DNA from: a virus
Strand: one strand, 5' to 3'
DNA length: 64,000 nt
Virus record (IMG/VR): IMGVR_UViG_3300028048_000061
Location: 32,001 to 96,000 of that record
Part shown: positions 3,927 to 61,229 of the stretch, piece by piece
Numbering within the stretch: position 1 is the stretch's first letter
Layout: every line of letters starts with the position of its first letter
Translations under genes and position numbers: made by a program
Notes under the pieces: generated by a model
Databases searched by the model: none
What the model was told of the DNA's origin: nothing
What the model saw: only the letters and a program-made list of their open reading frames with translations

Positions 3927-5561
3927 ATGACAGAAAATGATAATATAAGACATTATATAGGTAGCTTGGAAGCCACAGAGGACATTGATGTTATGTTCAA
4001 GCATATCTATGACCTTATGCTAGCAAATGGAGGAGAAGGGTCAGGATTAAACGCCGATATGCTTGACGGGTATCATGCATCGGATTTCGCACCGGCATCA
4101 TTAAAGGATGATATGGATTATTCTATCCAAGAAATTATTATTAATGGGCGAAGCTATAACAAAGGCGAGCCATTAGAAATACAGATAGGAGATATCATCA
4201 ATGCTGGTACAACCAATTATACGACAGCAGAATTTGATACACTAGCAAAAATAATTAACAATATTAAAACTTCAATAGAAGGATTAGACACAAGAACAGA
4301 AAATGTCGAAGATGGATTAAATAATGTAGGCAATATATCACGCTTTTTAGATAACGAAGATATGAGAGATGCATTAACCGCATTGACAGAAAATAATCTT
4401 CAAATTATTGGAGAAGGTATTGAGCAAAAATATTATTTAGATGCAGACAGTATTAATGGATTGTCATTACAGGTTGTAACTCAAGAAATGTATGATAATC
4501 TAGAGAATGATATTAAATTAGACCCACGAAACGTTTTCATTATTAATAATGATATCGGAGAGGCAATTGATGATGGAGAGTATGCGCCTCCAAGTATTTT
4601 GCAAGCAGGGATAAATCTTCAATTTGATATTAATCCAAATACTCACAATCTTGAATATTCCATTGACGGACGAACTTGGAAAACACTAAAAAATATTGTA
4701 GGGACAGAAAACAACAAAGGATTCTTGTATCCAACGTGGTTTAGCTTAATAAAAGATGTTATCGAAACCGAAGAACTAGAATTAGACCAAGAAGATTATC
4801 CATTCCTCTTAAATTCAGATGATGCAAAAGCAGAATTAGCCGATGAAATACAAGATTTAACAGAATATAAAGTTGGTGGGGTTACTATTGGATTACAATC
4901 AGTTACACCAACGTCATCAGAAACAAACATTGATATAACAAATCAACTAGACGCCTATTTAAATACATGGGTACAGAACCAAACAAACACTAATACGTTA
5001 AAGCAACAACTAGGTATCAATAATATTCTTTCGACCGTAAGCACCATAAACACACAATATGAAAACAAAAACAATAAACGGTCAAGCATGGTTGGTAGCG
5101 GAAATACAACAGAATATCCATCAACAAAAGCAATTGTTGACTATATTAATCCTATTCAATCGTCATTACAGAATCAAATTAATTCCCTTAAACAACTTTT
5201 AACGTTAAAAACAGGTTCGGCACCGGCATACACAACTTTCTTTAACGGAACAATATACTTCAGGAAAATAGGTGGCTGGGTATTTGTAACTGGAAGTTGT
5301 AAAACAAAAACGACCGTAAATTATACCGGATATGATGATTATTGGAATTTTTGTATGATTCCAAGCGGTTTTGAACCAAATGATACTTGTCGTGTTGTTG
5401 CTCAATGTAATGCATCAGATAAATGTTTTATTTATTTTAATACAGATGGAGCCGCTTTGATAGGCCGATTTGATTATCTTAACAAAAGAGCTGGAACGTA
5501 TACTCTTCCAAAAGATTATTGGATAACTATGTCTACATCATACCCAGCTAAATATCCATAG
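3927..5561 (+). CDS. Tail fibre / receptor-binding protein
   Basis: GSGLNADMLDGYHASDF fibre motif; YPSTKAIVDY repeat variant; coiled coil followed by a C-terminal beta head (YFRKIGGWVFVTG..IPSGFEP). Confidence 0.65.
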   Translation: MTENDNIRHYIGSLEATEDIDVMFKHIYDLMLANGGEGSGLNADMLDGYHASDFAPASLKDDMDYSIQEIIINGRSYNKGEPLEIQIGDIINAGTTNYTTAEFDTLAKIINNIKTSIEGLDTRTENVEDGLNNVGNISRFLDNEDMRDALTALTENNLQIIGEGIEQKYYLDADSINGLSLQVVTQEMYDNLENDIKLDPRNVFIINNDIGEAIDDGEYAPPSILQAGINLQFDINPNTHNLEYSIDGRTWKTLKNIVGTENNKGFLYPTWFSLIKDVIETEELELDQEDYPFLLNSDDAKAELADEIQDLTEYKVGGVTIGLQSVTPTSSETNIDITNQLDAYLNTWVQNQTNTNTLKQQLGINNILSTVSTINTQYENKNNKRSSMVGSGNTTEYPSTKAIVDYINPIQSSLQNQINSLKQLLTLKTGSAPAYTTFFNGTIYFRKIGGWVFVTGSCKTKTTVNYTGYDDYWNFCMIPSGFEPNDTCRVVAQCNASDKCFIYFNTDGAALIGRFDYLNKRAGTYTLPKDYWITMSTSYPAKYP

Positions 5562-13927: not shown

Positions 13928-15028
13928 ATGAAAACATCATTAATCATTCAAGAAGCAAAAGAAATTAAACAATTTATAGATAAAAACAAATCATTGCCAA
14001 AATTCTGTACAATCAATGGCAATACATATAGTATATATACAACGTCATATTTATTAGGAAAATTTTTACAAGATACTAAGAAAACAAGTGTGAATGTTAA
14101 AACTATTCAAACTTATAAGACACACACAAATGATAATATTAATGAGAAAATTTTGCCAAATGACTATTTGGATATGAATAGTAGGTTTGTTAAATATTGT
14201 GAAACGAACAAAAAGGTTCCATCTTATATTACAACTAAAAAATCTCAAATCAAAGTATCATATGAATTATTCGTATATTGTTTATGTAAAATAATTACAT
14301 TTTACTCCAATAATTCAAACACTTTGCCAGCATACTGTACTTTTAATTCATCCGATATTCAAAATAAGACAACCACTAAAACAACCACCCAAAAAACAGC
14401 AACCACATCTACATCAACCACCAAAAAAGTTGTCAAAAAAAGCAATTGTGAAAACCCATTCACAAGCAGCCCACATTACATCACCGAGGGGTGCAACAGA
14501 TTAGGTCAATGTAGAGGTTACTATTGCGCCCCTCATAGCATTCATCAAGCAATGAAAAAATTCGGCATAACAAAATTTTCCGAAAATCAAATCGCACAAT
14601 GGGCCGGAACCACCACGTCAGGCACGGGACATAGCGGCATAAATACGGCCATAGCAAAGATATCAAAGCAATCAGGAGTTAAATTAAGCGTAAAATGGAA
14701 AAACTTCTCTGACATGGGAAAAACCGACAAGGAACGCTTTGAAAACATTGCAAAAATATTATGCAAACCGAATACAGCAATAATTTGGCATATTCTCTAT
14801 ATTAATGGAGGCTCTGGCATCGTAGGAAAGGGATTTGGACACTATGAATGTCTAGATAAGATAAACATAGCAACAAGCCACGTTAGAGCATTGAATTCAT
14901 TAGGGGATAGAAAAGCCGATGGAAGCTATAAGGGAAGATTACAAGATAGAATGTATGCAATACAAGCATATTATGCAAAGCATACCAATGGAGGACAACC
15001 AGCTCTCTGCATAATTACAAAAGGATGA
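13928..15028 (+). CDS. Endolysin: pseudomurein-binding repeats + C39-family peptidase (PeiR-like)
   Basis: N-terminal FI..NK.LP....I / DM..R...Y...NK.VP.YI / FY..N..LP repeats; T-rich linker; LGQC..YYCAPHS..GT..SGI..GHYE..NSLG catalytic pattern. Confidence 0.85.
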   Translation: MKTSLIIQEAKEIKQFIDKNKSLPKFCTINGNTYSIYTTSYLLGKFLQDTKKTSVNVKTIQTYKTHTNDNINEKILPNDYLDMNSRFVKYCETNKKVPSYITTKKSQIKVSYELFVYCLCKIITFYSNNSNTLPAYCTFNSSDIQNKTTTKTTTQKTATTSTSTTKKVVKKSNCENPFTSSPHYITEGCNRLGQCRGYYCAPHSIHQAMKKFGITKFSENQIAQWAGTTTSGTGHSGINTAIAKISKQSGVKLSVKWKNFSDMGKTDKERFENIAKILCKPNTAIIWHILYINGGSGIVGKGFGHYECLDKINIATSHVRALNSLGDRKADGSYKGRLQDRMYAIQAYYAKHTNGGQPALCIITKG

Positions 15029-39678: not shown

Positions 39679-39776
39679 TGGAGTTGAGAGGATTTGAACC
39701 TCCGCGTTCTACCTTCGGCAGCGCTCTGGCCTATATATATCTGCCGGCAGATAACCCAAACCTGAGCTACAACTCC
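39679..39776 (-). ncRNA. tRNA-like RNA lacking an anticodon loop, with a 26-nt D-loop insertion (YrlA/Y-RNA-like candidate or tRNA pseudogene)
   Basis: Minus strand: perfect GGAGTTG/CAACTCC acceptor stem, GCTC/GAGC D stem, GGAGG-TTCAAAT-CCTCT T arm; anticodon arm is only CTGCC-GAA-GGTAG. Confidence 0.75.
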
Positions 39777-39906: not shown

Positions 39907-41418
39907 TTATTTACATACAATAGCATCATAACGTGGAGAGGTAATAGTCTCAACTAAAATATCATAAGGGTTAAGATTATTAGTCATAACCATCTTAAGA
40001 ACATTTTGACTAAAACCACTAACTAACGCAACACCCAATTCATTTTCAACCAAAGGAATTGTTTGGGTTCTTGAATTAACATTCCAAAAAATTAATTTTG
40101 GTAGCGCATATCCTGCGTCAGAATATCTGCGTTTAATTAAATCGAACAATGGTTGAGTCAAGACAGGGTCATCATTTCGCCACATTTTTTGTGCCGCATC
40201 AAACTCCATGTCAGAAATAATGAGAATATTCTTTATCATCTCATTTTGTGGAATACTGTTTTTAATGGCTGTTTGGAGTATAAGATTGAAAACGGCCTCG
40301 ATATTAGTGTTAGACACTTCGCTATGTTTCTTAGCAATTTGGAGTTTTTCATGTAAACTATTGGCATTTGAGAAATCTACAAATTGTGGTTTGCTTGAAA
40401 ATGTAATATACTTGTTTTTGTATACTCCAGAATTATGTTCTGAGGTATAAATCGCAAGAGCATTAGCAACATCAAGAGCTCTTGTATTACCACTAACTTC
40501 TGTAAGCATTGAGCCGCTACCGTCTGCGACAACAAGAGTATCCTCAACCAACACATCTTTAAGATTCTTCCAAGCCAATTCAAGCGCAGGGTCAAAATCT
40601 CCAATATTCCATCTGCTAGCACGATATTTTGAAACAACATCAACTGGTGTAGCAACTTTCATATTAAGTTTGCTTTCACCTTTTGCAACAGAAGAAAGGT
40701 AATCTAATCTTCTTTCCATATCGTGTTTCATAAAGGCGTCTTTGTATTTTAAATTCGCCAAAGATGGAACCTTTTCGTAATCTATTTCACCCCACTTGTT
40801 ATTACACATTTGTGTTTCAACTACGTTAGAATGAGAGCGAAGCTTTGATAACATCAAACGATATTGTCTTGGAGACATATTTAATAACTTCATTAATTGT
40901 CTTGCTAAAGCCTTGGTTTGCCTGCTGCTTGCGTTTTCAGAAGGCATCCATTTACTAAGCAAAGAAATCGGCTTGTTAGATTCGTAATTGTGTATATCCT
41001 CTGCCAATTGGCTGCGAATAATGCTGATAATATATTTATCGCTATCATAGCTAATACCCAGAAGAGATATAAGGTCGTCCCAACGGCCGTATTCTACGAT
41101 ATTATGAAGGTTTAGCCTGAATAAGACATTGTTTAGCTCAAATAATCTTTTATAGCAAATCCTAAACAATCTACGCTCACCTAATCCTTCGCGAATATCT
41201 CTCGCAAAGAATAGCCATTTTAAAGCGTACTCCTTATTTTCCTTGAAGGCCTCGTCAAATAATGCTACGATTTCATCTTCATCGCTATTACGTAGACTAG
41301 CAACCTTATAGTTTATGTCAACAAGTGCAGATTTACTGGATTTATATCCTACTGCCCCATTCTCTGTTAAAGAATAATTATCTTGTTCTTCAAGTTCTTC
41401 TTTGATTAAATGTAACAT
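39907..41418 (-). CDS. DUF2828-family protein (TROVE/Ro60-like helical domain + vWA domain)
   Basis: TENGA, ARDIREGLGERR, YGRWDDL, KWMPSE, IDYEKVPS, VVADGSGSM (MIDAS DxSxS), ITFS, NTN, IISDMEFD, IFWNVN, LVSGFS motifs; RBS GGAGG. Confidence 0.85.
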   Translation of the reverse strand: MLHLIKEELEEQDNYSLTENGAVGYKSSKSALVDINYKVASLRNSDEDEIVALFDEAFKENKEYALKWLFFARDIREGLGERRLFRICYKRLFELNNVLFRLNLHNIVEYGRWDDLISLLGISYDSDKYIISIIRSQLAEDIHNYESNKPISLLSKWMPSENASSRQTKALARQLMKLLNMSPRQYRLMLSKLRSHSNVVETQMCNNKWGEIDYEKVPSLANLKYKDAFMKHDMERRLDYLSSVAKGESKLNMKVATPVDVVSKYRASRWNIGDFDPALELAWKNLKDVLVEDTLVVADGSGSMLTEVSGNTRALDVANALAIYTSEHNSGVYKNKYITFSSKPQFVDFSNANSLHEKLQIAKKHSEVSNTNIEAVFNLILQTAIKNSIPQNEMIKNILIISDMEFDAAQKMWRNDDPVLTQPLFDLIKRRYSDAGYALPKLIFWNVNSRTQTIPLVENELGVALVSGFSQNVLKMVMTNNLNPYDILVETITSPRYDAIVCK

Positions 41419-41457
41419 TATTTAACAACCTCCTAAAAAATTTTTTATAAATGCTAC

Positions 41458-41513
41458 AAAGTGCTTTTTTTAGAATTTCTCCGATTCAATCATTTATTTG
41501 CTGTAAGCACTTT
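41458..41513 (-). ncRNA. Stem unit 3 of the RCAGCAA array
   Basis: Minus strand AAAGTGCTT-ACAGCAAAT...AAGCACTTT-G (9-bp terminal stem). Confidence 0.65.
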
Positions 41514-41526
41514 TTAATTTTGTTTC

Positions 41527-41609
41527 AAGGTGCGTGCTAAAATGACTACATTTCGTAGCCCCTTCATTCATTATTACTCATTGTGCATATTAATTGCTGC
41601 TTGCACCTT
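41527..41609 (-). ncRNA. Stem unit 2 of the RCAGCAA array
   Basis: Minus strand AAGGTGCAA-GCAGCAATT...GCACCTT-G (7-bp terminal stem); internal hairpin GGCTAC-GAAAT-GTAGTC. Confidence 0.6.
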
Positions 41610-41619
41610 TCTACTCACC

Positions 41620-41683
41620 AAGATACTGTGGATATTAATTTTGCAGATTAATTCTATTCAGTAATTTTTGCTGTCAGTATCTT
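41620..41683 (-). ncRNA. Stem unit 1 of the RCAGCAA array
   Basis: Minus strand AAGATACTG-ACAGCAAAA...CAGTATCTT-G (9-bp terminal stem); internal ATTAAT-CTGCAAA-ATTAAT hairpin. Confidence 0.65.
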
Positions 41684-41697
41684 ACATATACTATTAT

Positions 41698-41720
41698 ATT
41701 TTTTATAGTATATAAATGTT
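41698..41720 (-). promoter_or_regulatory. Conserved viral promoter motif (copy 1)
   Basis: AACATTTATATACTATAAAAAAT on the minus strand; identical copies at 58830 and 61873. Confidence 0.8.
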
Positions 41721-41727
41721 TGCATTA

Positions 41728-41809
41728 TGGCACAAGTCGGATTTGAACCGACGAAGCACTAAGCACAAGGTCCTAAACCTTGCATTTTTGACCACTCAAT
41801 CATTGTGCC
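41728..41809 (-). tRNA. trnL: tRNA-Leu(TAG)
   Basis: GGCACAA/TTGTGCC acceptor, CAAGG-TTTAGGA-CCTTG anticodon arm, long variable region, GTCGG-TTCAAAT-CCGAC T arm; no CCA. Confidence 0.9.
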
Positions 41810-41812
41810 AAA

Positions 41813-41884
41813 CAGAGCTAGAGGGATTCGAACCCCCACAAAAGGCTCCGAAGACCTTTATGCTCTCCATTACATCATAGCTCC
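41813..41884 (-). tRNA. trnR: tRNA-Arg(TCG)
   Basis: GGAGCTA/TAGCTCT acceptor, AAGGT-CTTCGGA-GCCTT anticodon arm, TTCGAAT T loop, G discriminator. Confidence 0.9.
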
Positions 41885-41892
41885 AAAAAAAA

Positions 41893-41978
41893 ATGAGACC
41901 ATTGAAACAACATGATAATGCTGTTGTCTAAGCCGGATACTCTCCAAACTTAGTAGCCGCTAAGCCCTATGGTCTCAT
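41893..41978 (-). ncRNA. Multi-branched structured RNA between tRNA-Trp and tRNA-Arg
   Basis: 10-bp perfect outer stem ATGAGACCAT/ATGGTCTCAT enclosing three hairpins, followed by 8 T. Confidence 0.55.
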
Positions 41979-42010
41979 ACATCATGACTGTTGTCTTAAA
42001 GACCCCAGAA

Positions 42011-42081
42011 TGGAAGCTAGAGGAGTCGAACCTCTACTTGTTGGTCTGGAGCCAACCGTACTACCGTTATACTAAGCAACC
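42011..42081 (-). tRNA. trnW: tRNA-Trp(CCA), intronless, with two U-U mismatches in the acceptor stem
   Basis: GTTGG-CTCCAGA-CCAAC anticodon arm, AGAGG-TTCGACT-CCTCT T arm; acceptor GGTTGCT/AGCTTCC. Confidence 0.85.
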
Positions 42082-42085
42082 AAGT

Positions 42086-46037: not shown

Positions 46038-48446
46038 CTATAATTGTAATGCTTGTATAATATCAACAAAAGGCGCATTCATATCTGTCTTGTTAAAAAA
46101 TAAAATGCTACCGTCTAAAATATCAAAAGACTCGTATCCACAAACTAGTTGTCCATCAAGGCTATATTCTTCATTAATATATAAACTAAAAGATACACAA
46201 TTATTGCCCTTTTTTGAAACAAATGATGATGCATCTTTTGTTATGCCAATATTATAATCTGGATTGTCCTTTTGCAAATTCTCTAATATCTCATATGTAT
46301 TTCCAGTAAACAAAGAATATTCTGAAGAATATTTATTCATATTTTTTAATTCAATTAGAGAAATTAATGATAATTTTGAGCCTTCCTTTTTAATCTTAAG
46401 TAATACTGGCTCGCCAACACTTTGTAGTGTATCTAAATAGCGAGTAATACCCCCTTGAGAAACATATATAGATTCGTTAGCGATATTATCAGTAACACTT
46501 AAGAACGCATAGTTTGTTTTAATTTTTAAAGAAGAAATCATTGTTTTTACGAAATAAATACCTTCTTCAACATCTTTAATCTCAGATAATGATAATATAG
46601 CTTCTGTTGTATTTATCTCATAACAAGAGAGTAAATTCTTTTTTGGATTCAATGATAATACACTAAATTCATTAAAGAGCTTTTCTTCTTCTGTCCAATG
46701 TTCATTTTCGGTTTCGTCAAACAAATGCATCAAATAACCCCTATCTGGATTAAAAGAGTCAAATGCTCCAGCTTTTAATAAAGCTTTAACAACCTTCTTA
46801 TTGACTTTTCGAGAATCTTTTCTTTCTAAAAAATCATTGAAATTATAATACGGTTGATTACTAATGATTGATTCAACAGCCTTTTCACCAACACCTTTAA
46901 TAAGATTAAAAGATAAATAAACATTATTATCATTTGTAGATACAATGGTATCTTTAGAAATGTTAATATCTGGATTATGAATAAGATAACCAGAGTTTTT
47001 CATTTCATTATAAATCTGCATTCTTTTGTCTTCGTTATCTGTGTTGTTTAATAGAGCGATATAAAATTCAATCGGATAATATGTTTTTAAATAACCAGTA
47101 ATATAAGTTAAAGCCGTATAAGACACGGCGTGTGCTTTATTAAAGGAATAAGAGGCACTTGCCTCCATTTTTTTAAAGACAGTTTCTGCAATATCTTGAG
47201 AGATTCCTCTATCTAAACAAGCTTGAATGAATTTTGGATAATACTCATCAAAAATGGCTTGAATTTTTTTACCGATACCTTTTCTAATGGTGTCTGCGTC
47301 CGCAGCTGACATCCCAGCAAAATCCGTAACAATCCTCATTGCTTGTTCTTGATAAACAATTGCTCCATAAGTCTTTTCCAAGATAGGTTCAAGTAATGGA
47401 TGGTCATATTCCACACTCTCCAACCCAAATTTCCTATTAATATAATGTTTTGTATCTCCAGAGTCTTGAGCTCCCGGCCTTGCCAATGCAGTTACGTCTG
47501 TTAATTCCTCAAAGTTTCTTGGTTGAATTTGGCGACAAGTTTCTGCAACCCCAGCTCCCTCAAATTGGAAGAGGCCTAATTGAGACTTATTAATTGTATC
47601 ATAAACACGTTCGTCATCATATGTAGATGGCAATCGAATATGTTTATTTAACTCCATTGCATCAGCAACAATGGTTAGTGTATTGAGCCCAAGCATATCT
47701 TGTTTTAACATGGATAAACTATCACAAGTTCTTCCATCTATATCAAGACATTCTACACCATTAATTTTTAATATAGAAGTGTATTTTTCAACAGAATCTG
47801 GTAATATAATATTTGCTCCAGCGTGAATACCATAAGTCTTTATCAATCCTTTTAAATCTTCGTAATTATCTCTAATAAATGGATTAGCGTTTAGGAAGGA
47901 TATCACTTCAAACGGTAAAGAATCTTCGTCAACGATTAAACCAGTTATCTTATTTACGTATTGAAAATCTAACCCAATAATACGTGCTAAATCTTTAATT
48001 GCGGTTTTGGCCGTCCAAGATAATTTATTAATGACTTGATAACTTTTATTTGACCCAAAATCTTGTTTAATTTGTTTCAAAATAGCTTGTCTTTTATCTC
48101 TAGGGATATCTACATCAATATCAGGATTTGCAATAGACGCTACTCTTGTTGGGTTTAAAAAACGCTCAAAAATTAAACTATGTTTAATAGGGTCAATATC
48201 TGTAATCTGTAAACAATAACAAACCAAGCTTCCAGCAGCACTTCCTCTGCCTCTATTTACAACAATTCCTTGAGATTTAAGTTTACAAACAATATATGCA
48301 GTATTTAAAAAGAAATCTTCAAGATTTCCACTATAAATAACATCTAATTCATAATTAAGACGTTTAACATAGTTAAAATCTTCTATAAAACCTCTTCTTT
48401 CAAGCCCTTCAAAACATTTTTTTCTTAAAAAATCTTTATTATCCAT
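46038..48446 (-). CDS. dnaE: Family C DNA polymerase (DnaE-like) catalytic subunit lacking the PHP domain
   Basis: GRGSAAGSLVCYCL.IT.IDP, FERFLNP, PDIDVD, KQDMLGL, GLFQFE, YSFNKAHA, HhH and OB fold; likely start 48446 after GGTGA. Confidence 0.95.
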   Translation of the reverse strand: MDNKDFLRKKCFEGLERRGFIEDFNYVKRLNYELDVIYSGNLEDFFLNTAYIVCKLKSQGIVVNRGRGSAAGSLVCYCLQITDIDPIKHSLIFERFLNPTRVASIANPDIDVDIPRDKRQAILKQIKQDFGSNKSYQVINKLSWTAKTAIKDLARIIGLDFQYVNKITGLIVDEDSLPFEVISFLNANPFIRDNYEDLKGLIKTYGIHAGANIILPDSVEKYTSILKINGVECLDIDGRTCDSLSMLKQDMLGLNTLTIVADAMELNKHIRLPSTYDDERVYDTINKSQLGLFQFEGAGVAETCRQIQPRNFEELTDVTALARPGAQDSGDTKHYINRKFGLESVEYDHPLLEPILEKTYGAIVYQEQAMRIVTDFAGMSAADADTIRKGIGKKIQAIFDEYYPKFIQACLDRGISQDIAETVFKKMEASASYSFNKAHAVSYTALTYITGYLKTYYPIEFYIALLNNTDNEDKRMQIYNEMKNSGYLIHNPDINISKDTIVSTNDNNVYLSFNLIKGVGEKAVESIISNQPYYNFNDFLERKDSRKVNKKVVKALLKAGAFDSFNPDRGYLMHLFDETENEHWTEEEKLFNEFSVLSLNPKKNLLSCYEINTTEAILSLSEIKDVEEGIYFVKTMISSLKIKTNYAFLSVTDNIANESIYVSQGGITRYLDTLQSVGEPVLLKIKKEGSKLSLISLIELKNMNKYSSEYSLFTGNTYEILENLQKDNPDYNIGITKDASSFVSKKGNNCVSFSLYINEEYSLDGQLVCGYESFDILDGSILFFNKTDMNAPFVDIIQALQL

Positions 48447-48451
48447 TAACA

Positions 48452-49369
48452 TCACCATATTTTTGAAAAGATTTCATCAAATTCCTTATGTTTAGTAAAG
48501 ACAGGTATTTTATCTGATTTATCACGAATTGATGCATTGCATCTATTTGCAATGACATATGTTTGCTCGAGAGCATTGTTAACAACATTTATATCTTCAA
48601 AGCCAGATTGAATGGCATTATTTCGAATAATTTCTGCTGACCCAACGCAATTTGAATCCATACTTTCGTTAACGTCAGCCAACTTTTTATGCCAACTAAT
48701 TGATTGGACAATTCTTCTTAAATTTTTATCAGTTTTGTCTACAAAGTGTGAATCGCAAGAAACTGTCAAAGGAATGCCATAACTTTCTGATAATGTCACC
48801 AATTTTTCATTGATAATTTTTTGGTCATCATATAAAGGGTGGAATTGTAGTTCAAGAGAAAAGTTATGATTAAAAATGTCGTCAAACAACAAAACGTAAT
48901 CCTCTGCCTTATCAATATTCTCGTCCAAAATACTTCTTGCTATGCTACCAAGAGAGCACGCACTTGTGCAATAAATCCCATCAGTAGGATATGTTTTTAA
49001 ACACTCATATGACAATATAGGTTTATAATAAAAATTTTCCACAGCAATACGTTGAAAACGTCGAATATTTTCCAATCCTTCTTGATTCATTGCGAGCATT
49101 ACTAAATGATATCTATCACGTGTTTTTGCTTCATTATATGAATCTCTACAATAAAACTCATTGCCAAAAATCGGTTTTATTTCATTATCTTGCATTACTT
49201 GGTCAAACTCAATCCATCCAGCACAACTAGAATGGTCAGTAATAGCACAAGCTTTTTGGTTATACTCCTTGAGCTTCATAGCTAACTTAGGAATCTTTAT
49301 AACAGAATCTTGTATGCTATACATACTATGTAAATGCAAATTAACAAAATCAGAATCTTTAAACGTCAT
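48452..49369 (-). CDS. PHP domain of DNA polymerase III alpha, encoded as a separate gene
   Basis: HLHSMYSIQD, AITDH, KPIFGNE, HLVMLAMN..G, SCDSHF metal ligands. Confidence 0.9.
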   Translation of the reverse strand: MTFKDSDFVNLHLHSMYSIQDSVIKIPKLAMKLKEYNQKACAITDHSSCAGWIEFDQVMQDNEIKPIFGNEFYCRDSYNEAKTRDRYHLVMLAMNQEGLENIRRFQRIAVENFYYKPILSYECLKTYPTDGIYCTSACSLGSIARSILDENIDKAEDYVLLFDDIFNHNFSLELQFHPLYDDQKIINEKLVTLSESYGIPLTVSCDSHFVDKTDKNLRRIVQSISWHKKLADVNESMDSNCVGSAEIIRNNAIQSGFEDINVVNNALEQTYVIANRCNASIRDKSDKIPVFTKHKEFDEIFSKIW

Positions 49370-58852: not shown

Positions 58853-61229
58853 ATACTATAATGGATTGTCCATTTTTCTTCTCAACAATAATGACATTTG
58901 TGGCAGCGTTTTCTAACTCTGCATCGTGAGTGATAATAATCATTTGTGGAACAAGAGAAATGCTTTGAATCACATTAACAAATTCTTGCTTTCTAAATCC
59001 ATCAAGATAAGTTGTCGGCTCGTCTAACAAGATAGTCTCAATTACATTAGCAGTAATTGCACTAGCAATTCCTAATCTTAAAGATAACGCAATAGCAATT
59101 TTTTCTCCACCACTCGCCATTGATATATCGCTTTCTCCAGATGGACCAACGATATTGATGTCATAATCTTCAGATAAAACTAGTCCAGAATAATCAAAAT
59201 CAAATTTACTAAAGAAATCTTGAGTATATTTTTCAATCTGCGGCCTAAATGCTAATCTGATATCCTTTTGAAGGCCATCTTTTGAATAAATTTCACGAAT
59301 ATCTTTTAAAAACTTAATAAACTCATCTAATTTCTTGACTTGTTCTTTATTTAATTTATTTTGCTTGATTTTATCGTCAAGAGTTTTAATTTGAGATTCT
59401 GTATATTTAATATTGTTCTCAAGCTGGCCGACTTCCTTCACTAAAGGATAATATTGATTATGCAATTGAGATTGCTGTGCTTGATACTGTTGTAACAAGT
59501 CAGAGTCAAAACCTATACTTAAAATATCTTGATTAACTTCCTCTAATAAAGCTTCTTTTTCAGAATATTGTTTTAATAAGTTTTCGTGTTTTTCTCTCAT
59601 ATCTTGTTGGCTTTGAACAATTAATTTTGCTTGCTCATAGTCCTTATTCTTTGCCAATAAGGTATTATAAATATTATGAATGTCATATTCTTTTTCTAAA
59701 TAATTATCGTCAAGCTCTAATTCTTCTGCTATCTTTTTCATTGTCATGTCCAAATCTGATATAGATTGTTTTTGTTCAGAAACATTTTGTTGAATCTTAT
59801 CAATCATATCTGTAGATATGACACCTTTTTCAATTTGAGAAACAAACGCTTGTTTTTCTTTTAACATTTCTGATAATTCATTATACTCTGTCTTTAAAAC
59901 AACAAGTTCTTTATTTCTCTTCTCTAGCTTATCTGTATCCTCTGCAATCAAGGCAGAATAGTTATCAATCATCTCTTGTTTGTGTTCATCATCAATCTGA
60001 GACTGACAAATAGGGCAAACACTTTGAACAGTATTTAAAGAATCAATAATCTCATTATTATTTGCTATAAGTGTATTTAAAACACTAATTTTAGCTGATA
60101 AATTCTTGATTTGTTCATCAATATTGTTTTTTGCATTGAGAGTTTGTTCATAATCTTTGCCAACAATCTCTTGTAATTTCAAAAATCCTTGCTTATCATA
60201 ATTATCTATTCCAACAATATTGTCAATTTTATATATTTCACAAATATTATTGATAAAATAAATATCAGCAAGAGCTTCTTCAAGTTCAATTGACACAGTA
60301 TGATAATCGTGAACATACTGTTTTCTTGTTTCCAAAGAATTTACAAGGCCTTCATATACCTTGATTGTCTCTTCAATCCCTTTGTTTTCATCGATAAAAT
60401 CTTCATATTGTTTGATATTTTGAGTATATTTATTTGCCTCTTCAATATCTTTTGACAACAACTCAAGCTCTCCTAATAAACGTTGTTGTGTAATATGAGA
60501 TTGATGAAATTTTACACTAAGAGCGTTTTGTTCATTTACTTTCTCTTTTATATCAGACATTTGTTTTTGCAATATATCCAATGCATTGCTTTTGTCATCA
60601 AATTGACTTTTTAAAGAGTTTTTTTCTTCAATCAAAGCATCTTTATTATCTGCAATGCTATCATCTATAAGACCATTAAGCTGTGTTCGTTTCAATTCAT
60701 AATTTGAAATTACATTTGCTATATCTTTATATGAAGTCTCCAAATTATCTAATCTTAATAATTTAGAGATATTTTTCTTACGTTCAGATGCCTTTTGTGT
60801 AACAAGACTATCAATTTCCCCTTGTCTAATATAAATCGCGTTCAAGAACAAATCTGCATCTATTTCCAATAACTCTTCAATATAATTATTAACCTCTTTA
60901 TCTCCAGATACAACACTATTATAATTGTTTTCTTGTAAAACAAACAACTCTGCTGTTGATTTCTTTTGGCTACGAGTTCTTTTGACTTTATATTCTTGAT
61001 TGCCAATCAAAAAAGATAAAGTTACAATCATACTATCTGATTGTGTATTTATCAAGTCATTTAATGACTTTGTATTATATTTTTTATACAATGCAAAGTT
61101 AATGCCTTCAAAGATAGATGATTTTCCAGCTCCATTATCACCCAATATGATTGTAGTACCTTTATTAAACTCAATTTCTGTATTTATATGTGACTTAAAA
61201 TTCTGTAGCGTCAATTTTTTAAAAATCAT
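58851..61229 (-). CDS. rad50: Rad50/SbcC ATPase
   Basis: NFKSH, GDNGAGKSS, YIRQGEI, CPIC zinc hook, SGGEK, LLDEPT. Confidence 0.95.
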   Translation of the reverse strand: MIFKKLTLQNFKSHINTEIEFNKGTTIILGDNGAGKSSIFEGINFALYKKYNTKSLNDLINTQSDSMIVTLSFLIGNQEYKVKRTRSQKKSTAELFVLQENNYNSVVSGDKEVNNYIEELLEIDADLFLNAIYIRQGEIDSLVTQKASERKKNISKLLRLDNLETSYKDIANVISNYELKRTQLNGLIDDSIADNKDALIEEKNSLKSQFDDKSNALDILQKQMSDIKEKVNEQNALSVKFHQSHITQQRLLGELELLSKDIEEANKYTQNIKQYEDFIDENKGIEETIKVYEGLVNSLETRKQYVHDYHTVSIELEEALADIYFINNICEIYKIDNIVGIDNYDKQGFLKLQEIVGKDYEQTLNAKNNIDEQIKNLSAKISVLNTLIANNNEIIDSLNTVQSVCPICQSQIDDEHKQEMIDNYSALIAEDTDKLEKRNKELVVLKTEYNELSEMLKEKQAFVSQIEKGVISTDMIDKIQQNVSEQKQSISDLDMTMKKIAEELELDDNYLEKEYDIHNIYNTLLAKNKDYEQAKLIVQSQQDMREKHENLLKQYSEKEALLEEVNQDILSIGFDSDLLQQYQAQQSQLHNQYYPLVKEVGQLENNIKYTESQIKTLDDKIKQNKLNKEQVKKLDEFIKFLKDIREIYSKDGLQKDIRLAFRPQIEKYTQDFFSKFDFDYSGLVLSEDYDINIVGPSGESDISMASGGEKIAIALSLRLGIASAITANVIETILLDEPTTYLDGFRKQEFVNVIQSISLVPQMIIITHDAELENAATNVIIVEKKNGQSIIV

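What the first reader, a model, noticed from the sequence alone, without database searches (positions are those of the whole stretch)
41458..41683. Array of three sequence-diverse stem units with a positionally fixed RCAGCAA motif
Seen (minus strand): AAGATACTG|ACAGCAAAA..CAGTATCTT-G; AAGGTGCAA|GCAGCAATT..GCACCTT-G; AAAGTGCTT|ACAGCAAAT..AAGCACTTT-G. Each unit starts with AAR, has the motif at nt 10, closes with a complementary 3' arm followed by G, and has a different stem sequence (compensatory-like variation) and a different 38-65 nt interior. Units are 10-13 nt apart. The predicted TSS of the promoter at 41698-41720 falls 2-4 nt before unit 1, and unit 3 ends 39 nt before the DUF2828 ATG. 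Inference: a polycistronic set of Y-RNA-like small RNAs with a constant protein-binding handle and variable cargo loops, or a triple RNA operator for autoregulation of the DUF2828 mRNA. It is not a CRISPR array.
Basis: partly seen in the sequence, partly recalled or inferred. Interest (0 to 1): 0.88.

Follow-up and report, generated by a model that had tools for sequence, protein, structure and literature searches.

The report
Handle-tagged small RNAs beside Ro60-like gene
Three small hairpin RNA genes that share one conserved "handle" (a 7-9-bp closing stem followed by ACAGCAA) lie just upstream of a gene for a protein predicted to fold like the RNA-binding ring Ro60, in a virus that probably infects methanogenic archaea. 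The same RNA-protein pairing recurs in many phages and is in no RNA catalogue, so it is probably an undescribed relative of the Ro60/Y-RNA particle.

Summary
Minus-strand units U1 (41683-41619), U2 (41609-41526) and U3 (41513-41457) each have a closing stem, RCAGCAA at nt 10 and a 3' G.

They are not chance. All 13 related contigs keep 2-3 units directly upstream of the DUF2828 ATG, although the genes further upstream differ. The stems show compensatory changes while the loops diverge.

A covariance model of the handle found:
- 150 hits, all on the sense strand, in 80 other viral DUF2828 loci;
- 59 hits (56 sense) in 80 loci from cellular genomes or MAGs;
- 0 hits in 832 kb of unrelated viral DNA.

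The DUF2828 protein is predicted to fold like Ro60 over its whole length (Z 23.1). Some family members elsewhere carry a YrlA-like tRNA mimic.

The best reading is Y-RNA-like partner RNAs of a divergent Ro60-like protein. Expression and binding are untested.

This scan has noted the family on other DNA before (135 notes). New here is the host setting. The genome encodes an archaeal-type histone and a pseudomurein-binding repeat. A TTTATATA box lies 25 nt before U1. The nearest cellular relative is a Methanobrevibacter MAG contig. I found no published description of the family.

The parts
41709..41716 (-). TTTATATA box, probable archaeal TATA-box promoter of the array
   Evidence: It lies 25 nt upstream of the first base of U1. 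The same or a near-identical box lies 25-26 nt upstream of U1 in L003, L139, L234, L235, L238, L232 and L236. TTTATATA occurs 26 times in the window against 13.6 expected. Promoter function is inferred.
41619..41683 (-). Unit U1: 9-bp closing stem, ACAGCAA (41674-41668), 39-nt loop, 3' G
   Evidence: Sequence. R1 covariance model 49.2 bits (this unit was in the training set). Orthologues outside the training set score 32-48 bits. Compensatory changes occur in L237 (AAGACAC/GUGUCUU) and L238 (AAGAUGCC/GGCAUCUU).
41526..41609 (-). Unit U2: 7-bp closing stem, AA, GCAGCAA (41600-41594), 60-nt loop with an inner hairpin, 3' G
   Evidence: R1 36.1 bits. RNAalifold on a structure-blind alignment predicts this stem. 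Pair 4 is GC in 5 sequences and AU in 5; pair 6 is GC in 9 and AU in 1; none is broken.
41457..41513 (-). Unit U3: 9-bp closing stem, ACAGCAA (41504-41498), 31-nt loop, 3' G
   Evidence: R1 42.5 bits. RNAalifold predicts the stem, with compensatory changes at pairs 6, 8 and 9. Weak Rfam Dicty_Class_I_RNA match of 18.8 bits sharing CUUACAGCAA.
41429..41434 (-). AGGAGG ribosome-binding site of the DUF2828 gene, preceded by a T6 run
   Evidence: Sequence. Purine-rich GGAGG- or GAGG-like sites align at this position in the related leaders. No hairpin terminator lies between U3 and the gene.
39907..41418 (-). DUF2828/DUF7788 protein (503 aa), predicted Ro60-like ring plus vWA domain; candidate protein partner
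   Evidence: Pfam DUF7788 4e-48 and DUF2828 1e-33. AlphaFold2 model pLDDT 90.5. Foldseek top matches are all Ro60/TROVE. VIA-align Z 23.1, rmsd 4.0 A, 421 residues against Xenopus Ro60, compared with Z 11.8 or less for vWA-only chains. MIDAS residues D299, S301, S303, T371 and D403 are invariant.
41727..42082 (-). tRNA cluster (Trp-CCA, Arg-TCG, Leu-TAG) directly upstream on the same strand
   Evidence: ARAGORN and Rfam. In relatives L231, L237 and L240, U1 follows a tRNA 3' end by only 4-8 nt with no TATA box. Family members in other viruses lie inside tRNA clusters.

Best explanation
U1-U3 are members of a widespread, uncatalogued family of small structured RNAs. The family is defined by a 'handle': the 5' and 3' ends pair in a 7-9-bp helix (consensus N-A-G-R-Y-R-C with its complement), followed after 2-3 nt by invariant CAGCAA and closed by an unpaired 3' G. 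The interior is free to vary.

The handle is most likely the binding site for the DUF2828 protein encoded directly downstream. That protein is a divergent Ro60-like ring with a vWA domain, so the pair would form a Y-RNA-like ribonucleoprotein.

In this virus the three RNAs are probably transcribed from an archaeal TATA-box promoter that starts at or just before U1. They would be made either as a short precursor or as the leader of the DUF2828 mRNA. By analogy with Ro60 and Y RNA, the handle would dock the RNA on the protein, and the variable loop would gate the ring or recruit other factors. In other members the loop mimics tRNA anticodon arms, T-arms or a whole YrlA-type tRNA-like domain. A plausible role is tRNA or RNA surveillance, repair, or decoying of host tRNA-targeting nucleases during infection.

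Shown by computation: the anatomy, conservation and covariation, genomic linkage to DUF2828, and the Ro60-like predicted fold. Inferred: transcription, processing, binding and biological role.
For: 1. Orthology. Thirteen relatives with 62-85% identical DUF2828 proteins keep 2-3 units directly before the ATG: L001-L003, L139, L141 and L231-L239, counting the near-identical pair L232/L233 once. The Methanobrevibacter MAG contig L240 does too. The upstream neighbour differs between them: tRNAs, NrdD, GIY-YIG or NUMOD3 endonucleases, an IS605 OrfB, or small ORFs.

2. Covariation. In a structure-blind MAFFT alignment of 10 leaders, RNAalifold predicts only the U2 and U3 closing stems. Five pairs change on both sides and none is broken; the only missing cells are L236, which lacks U3. 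The loops diverge. Across 48 family members all 9 pairs change on both sides, and CAGCAA is invariant.

3. Linkage.
- An exact-stem scan of 80 viral DUF2828 loci with 37-52% protein identity gave 93 sense and 7 antisense hits. Shuffles gave 0-4 on the sense strand and permuted motifs gave 0-4.
- Model R1 gave 150 hits, all sense, in 60 of the 80 loci.
- It gave 59 hits (56 sense) in 31 of 80 loci from cellular genomes or MAGs.
- It gave 0 hits in 832 kb of unrelated viral loci.
- In a looser scan that allows G-U pairs and one mismatch (381 sense, 109 antisense hits), the sense hits peak within 250 nt upstream of the gene.
- Four of five viral records found through the U1-type RNA pattern alone carry DUF2828 within about 6 kb on the same strand.

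4. Protein. The predicted fold matches Ro60 over the whole length. A profile search of PDB puts Ro60 first, at E 0.04.

5. Family members L122:2011-2134(-) and L123:4262-4376(+) hold a T-arm, a closed acceptor stem and a D-arm. They hit Rfam YrlA at 34.8 and 28.1 bits.

6. Chen et al. 2014 (PMC4201824) report that bacterial Y RNAs carry a short 5'-proximal motif, GNCGAAN0-1G, thought to be the Ro60 contact. They also note that Ro60 mainly reads the 5' strand. That is an analogous layout.
Against: - There is no expression, processing or binding evidence.
- The window's three units carry no tRNA-like module, do not match Rfam Y_RNA or YrlA, and lack the GNCGAA motif.
- The DUF2828 protein does not match Pfam TROVE. 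This virus encodes no RtcB.
- In this lineage the units always sit in the mRNA leader, so a purely cis role cannot be separated from a trans role.
- 20 of the 80 viral DUF2828 loci and 49 of the 80 genome or MAG loci had no model hit within the flanks searched.
- Single-sequence folding z-scores are weak.
- The 48-sequence covariation count was made on units selected for having at least 8 perfect pairs, so it is partly circular.
Confidence: 0.6

Rival explanations
1. The three hairpins are cis-acting elements of the DUF2828 mRNA leader. They would be operators for autoregulation by the protein, or stability or translation elements, and are not released as separate RNAs.
For: In all 13 close relatives and in the window, the array lies between a promoter (or a tRNA) and the ribosome-binding site of DUF2828. 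No hairpin terminator intervenes. In other phages the commonest position is within 250 nt upstream of the gene.
Against: The same handle occurs downstream of the gene (L231 3855-4006, L237 3534-3594). It also occurs kilobases away inside tRNA clusters (L122, L123, L125) and in arrays with no adjacent gene start (L124, L060). Some members are tRNA-shaped. In L231, L237 and L240, U1 abuts a tRNA 3' end, as a co-processed RNA gene would.
Confidence: 0.15
2. The units are stand-alone decoys or processing substrates recognised by host enzymes, such as RNase P or Z, tRNA-modifying enzymes, or anticodon nucleases. DUF2828 would be linked only by pathway and would not bind them directly.
For: The units are tightly associated with tRNA clusters. 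Cargo loops mimic anticodon arms: L231 3947-4006 and L237 3534-3594 share one stem but carry CUCAGGA and CUUUGAA loops. One search shows many CUUUUAA or CUGUUAA loops, as well as T-arms.
Against: This does not explain an invariant handle unrelated to tRNA, or its strand-specific linkage to one protein family across hosts from archaea to Clostridia and Bacteroidota. The window's own loops are poorly conserved, and the CUGCAAA loop of U1 is not kept in L234 or L139.
Confidence: 0.15
3. These are DNA-level elements such as iterons, recombination sites or miniature inverted-repeat elements, or a chance cluster of inverted repeats in AT-rich DNA.
For: Short inverted repeats are common in DNA of 32% G+C. 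Single-sequence fold z-scores are modest.
Against: The hits show extreme strand bias: 150:0 and 93:7. Compensatory changes keep pairing but not sequence. The 3' G and CAGCAA are fixed on one strand only. There were no hits in 832 kb of control DNA.
Confidence: 0.03

Closest known systems
Ro60/Rsr with Y RNAs, especially bacterial and phage YrlA/YrlB (Rfam RF02553; Chen et al. 2014, PMC4201824)
   Same: - The small RNAs have paired 5' and 3' ends.
- They carry a short conserved motif near the 5' end.
- They are encoded beside, and on the same strand as, a ring-plus-vWA protein of Ro60 fold.
- The interiors are modular, and in some members they mimic tRNA in the YrlA topology.
   Different: - The protein belongs to Pfam DUF2828/DUF7788, not TROVE, and is about 12% identical to Ro60.
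- The handle is a 7-bp helix plus ACAGCAA, not GNCGAA or GGUCCGA.
- The window's units are 56-84 nt with no tRNA-like domain.
- Up to three or more copies occur in tandem.
- The host here is probably archaeal.
- No Rfam match reaches threshold.
Class I RNAs of dictyostelid social amoebae (Rfam RF01414; Kjellin et al. 2021, PMC7919456)
   Same: - The design is the same: about 60 nt, with a short terminal stem whose sequence varies through compensatory changes.
- AA precedes a conserved G at the 5' end.
- A mostly unpaired conserved motif directly follows the 5' arm. The Rfam consensus is CUUACAGCAA, and U3 reads CUUACAGCAA.
- The 3' end is conserved, and the interior is variable.
   Different: - Class I RNAs are eukaryotic nuclear genes with their own DUSE promoter.
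- They are reported as unique to Dictyostelia, and their known binder is the RRM protein Rnp1A.
- U3 scores only 18.8 bits against a gathering score of 41.5. U1 and U2 do not hit.
- Homology is unproven.
Ro60 homologue of Thermus phage phiLo (PDB 9l5y; PMC12135203)
   Same: It is a virus-encoded Ro60-fold protein, and among the top structural matches (E 2.5e-7; Z 15.7).
   Different: It is a canonical TROVE protein. No handle-type RNA is described for it in the paper's abstract or in the passages I saw.

Membership tests
Y RNA / YrlA (Rfam RF02553, RF00019) | Encoded next to a Ro60/TROVE-fold protein gene | tested here: met
   U3 ends 39 nt before the DUF2828 gene. The model matches Ro60 at Z 23.1 over 421 residues. 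Pfam TROVE itself does not hit.
Y RNA / YrlA (Rfam RF02553, RF00019) | 5' and 3' ends pair in a conserved stem | tested here: met
   Stems of 7-9 bp with compensatory changes.
Y RNA / YrlA (Rfam RF02553, RF00019) | Ro60-contact motif GNCGAAN0-1G (bacteria) or GGUCCGA (vertebrates) near the 5' end | tested here: not met
   The motif here is RCAGCAA. The definition comes from PMC4201824.
Y RNA / YrlA (Rfam RF02553, RF00019) | tRNA-like domain (T-arm, D-arm, closed acceptor stem) | tested here: not met
   Absent from U1-U3. Present in other family members, L122 and L123, at 34.8 and 28.1 bits, below the gathering score of 69.
Y RNA / YrlA (Rfam RF02553, RF00019) | Physical association with the Ro60-type protein | not testable with these tools
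   Needs RIP, EMSA or a structure.
Dictyostelium Class I RNA (Rfam RF01414) | About 60 nt, short terminal stem that covaries, conserved motif after the 5' arm | tested here: met
Dictyostelium Class I RNA (Rfam RF01414) | Rfam gathering score of 41.5 bits | tested here: not met
   U3 scores 18.8 bits (E 0.4 in a 261-nt search). U1 and U2 do not hit.
Dictyostelium Class I RNA (Rfam RF01414) | DUSE promoter and dictyostelid genome | tested here: not met
   This is a viral genome with a TTTATATA box or a tRNA upstream of U1.
Ro60/TROVE protein family (for the DUF2828 gene) | HEAT-repeat ring plus C-terminal vWA domain with MIDAS motif | tested here: met
   Predicted fold. DxSxS, T and D are invariant. 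This rests on prediction only.
Ro60/TROVE protein family (for the DUF2828 gene) | Match to Pfam TROVE PF05731 | tested here: not met
   No match in the whole viral genome at E 0.1 or better. Pfam gives only DUF2828, DUF7788 and a weak VWA_2 match.
CRISPR array | Near-identical direct repeats separated by unique spacers | tested here: not met
   Only the 6-7-nt motif and AAR/YUUG are shared. The stems differ and pair within each unit.
Archaeal BHB-flanked or permuted tRNA precursors | Bulge-helix-bulge at the paired termini, and tRNA halves inside | tested here: not met
   The closing stems are continuous with no 3-nt bulges. There are no tRNA halves in U1-U3.

The most novel reading that the evidence does not exclude
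The 'short stem + ACAGCAA' handle may be one ancient recognition module shared by viruses of archaea and bacteria, by gut bacteria, and by the Class I RNAs of Dictyostelium. If so, Class I RNAs are not unique to amoebae. Their function and the viral one would converge on a Ro60-like (DUF2828-type) particle that displays tRNA-part mimics, used by viruses to sense, repair or decoy attacks on tRNAs.
Probability: 0.15. Interest if true: 0.92.

Novelty: new variant of a known kind. Interest (0 to 1): 0.8.

Why it matters
Ro60 and Y RNAs are a classic but poorly understood RNA-surveillance particle. Their known RNA partners are few and are restricted to TROVE-annotated genomes.

This finding points to a second, much larger branch. 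A DUF2828 protein family with thousands of clusters (6,884 at 50% identity with E 0.001 or better) has its own RNA handle. The handle carries interchangeable cargo loops that often copy parts of tRNAs.

This window appears to extend that pairing to a virus of methanogenic archaea that uses an archaeal-type promoter. The module would then cross domains of life.

The system gives a directly testable hypothesis, protein-handle binding, and a sequence signature for finding hundreds of new non-coding RNAs. It may also explain what the enigmatic Dictyostelium Class I RNAs resemble.

Tried and rejected
- Rfam at gathering and E-value thresholds found no family for U1-U3 apart from the weak Class I match on U3.
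- The phage GenBank blastn search found no match.
- My first 15-base pattern scan of viral contigs returned mostly chance hits and had to be filtered by the closing arm.
- Extra model hits were examined. Window 60016-60077(-) at 26.1 bits lies inside a 792-aa ORF and was rejected as chance. G000:4792-4854(-) at 26.9 bits is kept only as a weak candidate.
- I tested whether the loops act as antisense guides. The longest complementarity to the rest of the viral genome is 11-14 nt, no better than shuffled loops. An earlier run was invalid because the locus matched itself. Host targets could not be tested.
- C/D-box sRNA, bulge-helix-bulge or permuted tRNA, and CRISPR readings were considered and rejected on sequence.
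- The anticodon-loop mimic in U1 (CUGCAAA) is not conserved in L234 or L139.
I therefore laid no reads and did not try another route.
- DUF2828 was found in only 1 of 151 genomes searched from the family of the Methanobrevibacter MAG. It is therefore viral rather than a host gene, and gives no independent host proof.
- Literature searches for DUF2828 and ACAGCAA found no description of this system.

Full report
**What is there.** On the minus strand the order is:
- tRNA-Trp, tRNA-Arg and tRNA-Leu (42082-41727);
- a TTTATATA box (41716-41709);
- three hairpin units;
- an AGGAGG ribosome-binding site;
- a 503-aa DUF2828/DUF7788 gene (41418-39907).

Each starts with AAR and has RCAGCAA at nt 10. 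Each closes with a complementary 3' arm (9, 7 and 9 bp) followed by G. The gaps are 10 and 13 nt, and U3 ends 39 nt before the ATG. Each unit alone folds only modestly better than shuffled sequence (z -2.1, -1.3, -0.4). The motif is not enriched window-wide, but 3 of its 6 minus-strand copies lie in these 180 nt.

**Orthologues.** Relatives of the protein were fetched from viral contigs and public assemblies. All 13 contigs with 62-85% identical proteins carry 2-3 units directly before the ATG, and all are on the gene's strand. What lies further upstream differs: tRNAs, NrdD, homing-endonuclease genes, an IS605 OrfB or small ORFs. The array therefore travels with the gene.

I aligned ten leaders with MAFFT without any structural input. 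RNAalifold predicted only the closing stems of U2 and U3. Several pairs changed on both sides:
- U2 pair 4: GC in 5 sequences, AU in 5.
- U3 pair 6: GC in 6, AU in 3.
- U3 pair 8: UA in 6, CG in 3.

No pair was broken, and the loops are poorly conserved. The U1 stem shifts from AAGAUAC to AAGACAC (L237) and to AAGAUGCC (L238), each with a matching 3' arm.

**A wider family.** A pattern for the U1-type hairpin found copies in unrelated viral contigs, usually inside tRNA clusters. Four of five such records encode a DUF2828 protein within about 6 kb on the same strand.

I then took 80 viral DUF2828 loci with only 37-52% protein identity. An exact-stem scan gave 93 units on the gene's strand against 7 on the other. 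Shuffled DNA gave 0-4 on the sense strand, and permuted motifs gave 0-4.

Forty-eight units aligned cleanly at both ends. CAGCAA is invariant, the 3' G is nearly so, and every stem pair shows double changes. These units were selected for perfect stems, so that count is partly circular.

A covariance model (R1) gave:
- 150 hits, all sense, in 60 of the 80 viral loci;
- 59 hits, 56 sense, in 31 of 80 loci from cellular genomes or MAGs;
- none in 832 kb of unrelated viral loci.

In a looser scan that allows G-U pairs and one mismatch (381 sense, 109 antisense hits), the sense hits peak within 250 nt upstream of the gene, with a second peak just downstream.

**Cargo.** Loops in other members often copy parts of tRNAs:
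- 5-bp stems with 7-nt loops such as CUUUUAA or CUGUUAA;
- T-arms next to the 3' arm;
- a permuted T-arm, closed acceptor stem and D-arm.

The last type hits Rfam YrlA below threshold: L122 at 34.8 bits and L123 at 28.1 bits, against a gathering score of 69.

In the archaeal-virus relatives, units downstream of the gene carry the same inner stem with different anticodon-like loops: CUCAGGA in L231 and CUUUGAA in L237. The window's own loops are plain. They show no antisense complementarity to the viral genome beyond chance.

**The protein.** A 38-sequence alignment gave a confident model (pLDDT 90.5). Foldseek's top twelve matches are all Ro60/TROVE structures and span the whole length. VIA-align gives Z 23.1, rmsd 4.0 A and 421 aligned residues against Xenopus Ro60, compared with Z 11.8 or less for vWA-only chains. 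The MIDAS residues are invariant. Pfam TROVE does not match, so this is a divergent branch recognised by predicted fold.

**Host.** The window lies in a 154.7-kb virus record. That record encodes:
- a histone-fold protein, which hit only archaea among the 14 control genomes;
- a pseudomurein-binding repeat.

Relatives also carry a histone gene. The only close cellular hit is a Methanobrevibacter MAG contig at 69% identity; the next hits are bacterial at 51% or less. TTTATATA is over-represented in the window. It lies 25-26 nt before U1 in seven relatives, whereas in three others U1 abuts a tRNA 3' end. This points to a virus of Methanobacteriales that uses archaeal promoters. It is an inference, not proof.

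**Interpretation.** The layout parallels Ro60 and Y RNA. The RNA ends are paired, a short conserved motif sits near the 5' end, and the genes lie beside the protein gene (PMC4201824). I therefore read U1-U3 as Y-RNA-like partners of the DUF2828 protein (confidence 0.6). A purely cis leader role is the main rival in this lineage.

The design also matches the Dictyostelium Class I RNAs (PMC7919456). U3 gives a weak Rfam match that shares CUUACAGCAA. This is a resemblance only, not membership.

**Novelty.** I found no Rfam family and no paper that describes this system. Earlier agents of this scan reached the same reading on other genomes (135 notes). None of those notes mentions an archaeal virus.

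Noticed in passing
window 39679-39776 (-): A tRNA-like RNA lies downstream of the DUF2828 gene, after a U8 terminator hairpin. It matches Rfam tRNA at 38.7 bits, with intact acceptor, D and T arms and a 3' CCA. It has a 35-nt hairpin insert in the D-loop and only a 3-nt 'anticodon loop'. The 247-nt region folds with z -6.6.
   Followed up: partly
G000:C1:4792-4854 (-), outside the window (L226): Weak fourth handle candidate: AAGAUAGCA-ACAGCAC...UGCUAUCUU-G, R1 26.9 bits. It lies about 600 nt downstream of a second tRNA cluster (Thr, Ser, Met, Ser, Cys) on the same strand, inside a doubtful 58-aa ORF.
   Followed up: partly
L125 4262-4815 (+): A ROOL RNA (Rfam RF03087, 363 bits) lies 15 nt upstream of a handle unit (4831-4886), followed by tRNA-Asp. 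The same contig carries a DUF2828 gene about 4 kb downstream.
   Followed up: no
L001 2340-2610 and L002 2730-3000: These two relatives have only two units. They are followed by a roughly 250-nt non-coding stretch with a shared block (TATAGGAAAA[AT]GGGTTTA...) before the DUF2828 ATG. It may be another structured RNA.
   Followed up: no
G000:C1:6256-6441 (-) and window about 13955-14236 (+): The virus encodes an archaeal-type histone and a protein with pseudomurein-binding repeats. It also encodes a bacterial-type DnaE polymerase (window 46038-48458), NrdD and rubrerythrin. This is an unusual mix for an archaeal virus.
   Followed up: partly
L314 1627-1857 (-): In one Prevotella-labelled contig, three strong handle units lie on the strand opposite to DUF2828, directly upstream and divergent. 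This is the only exception to the strand rule in 80 genome loci.
   Followed up: no
L122 2138-2214 and 7038-7115 (-): Two tRNAs with a CUA anticodon (amber suppressors, called 'Pyl' by ARAGORN) lie in the tRNA cluster that also holds handle units. This hints at stop-codon recoding in that 179-kb phage.
   Followed up: no
window 41885-42010 (-): A 125-nt structured spacer between tRNA-Trp and tRNA-Arg ends in a U9 run and contains ACAGCAU and ACAGUCAU words. The handle model did not call it.
   Followed up: no
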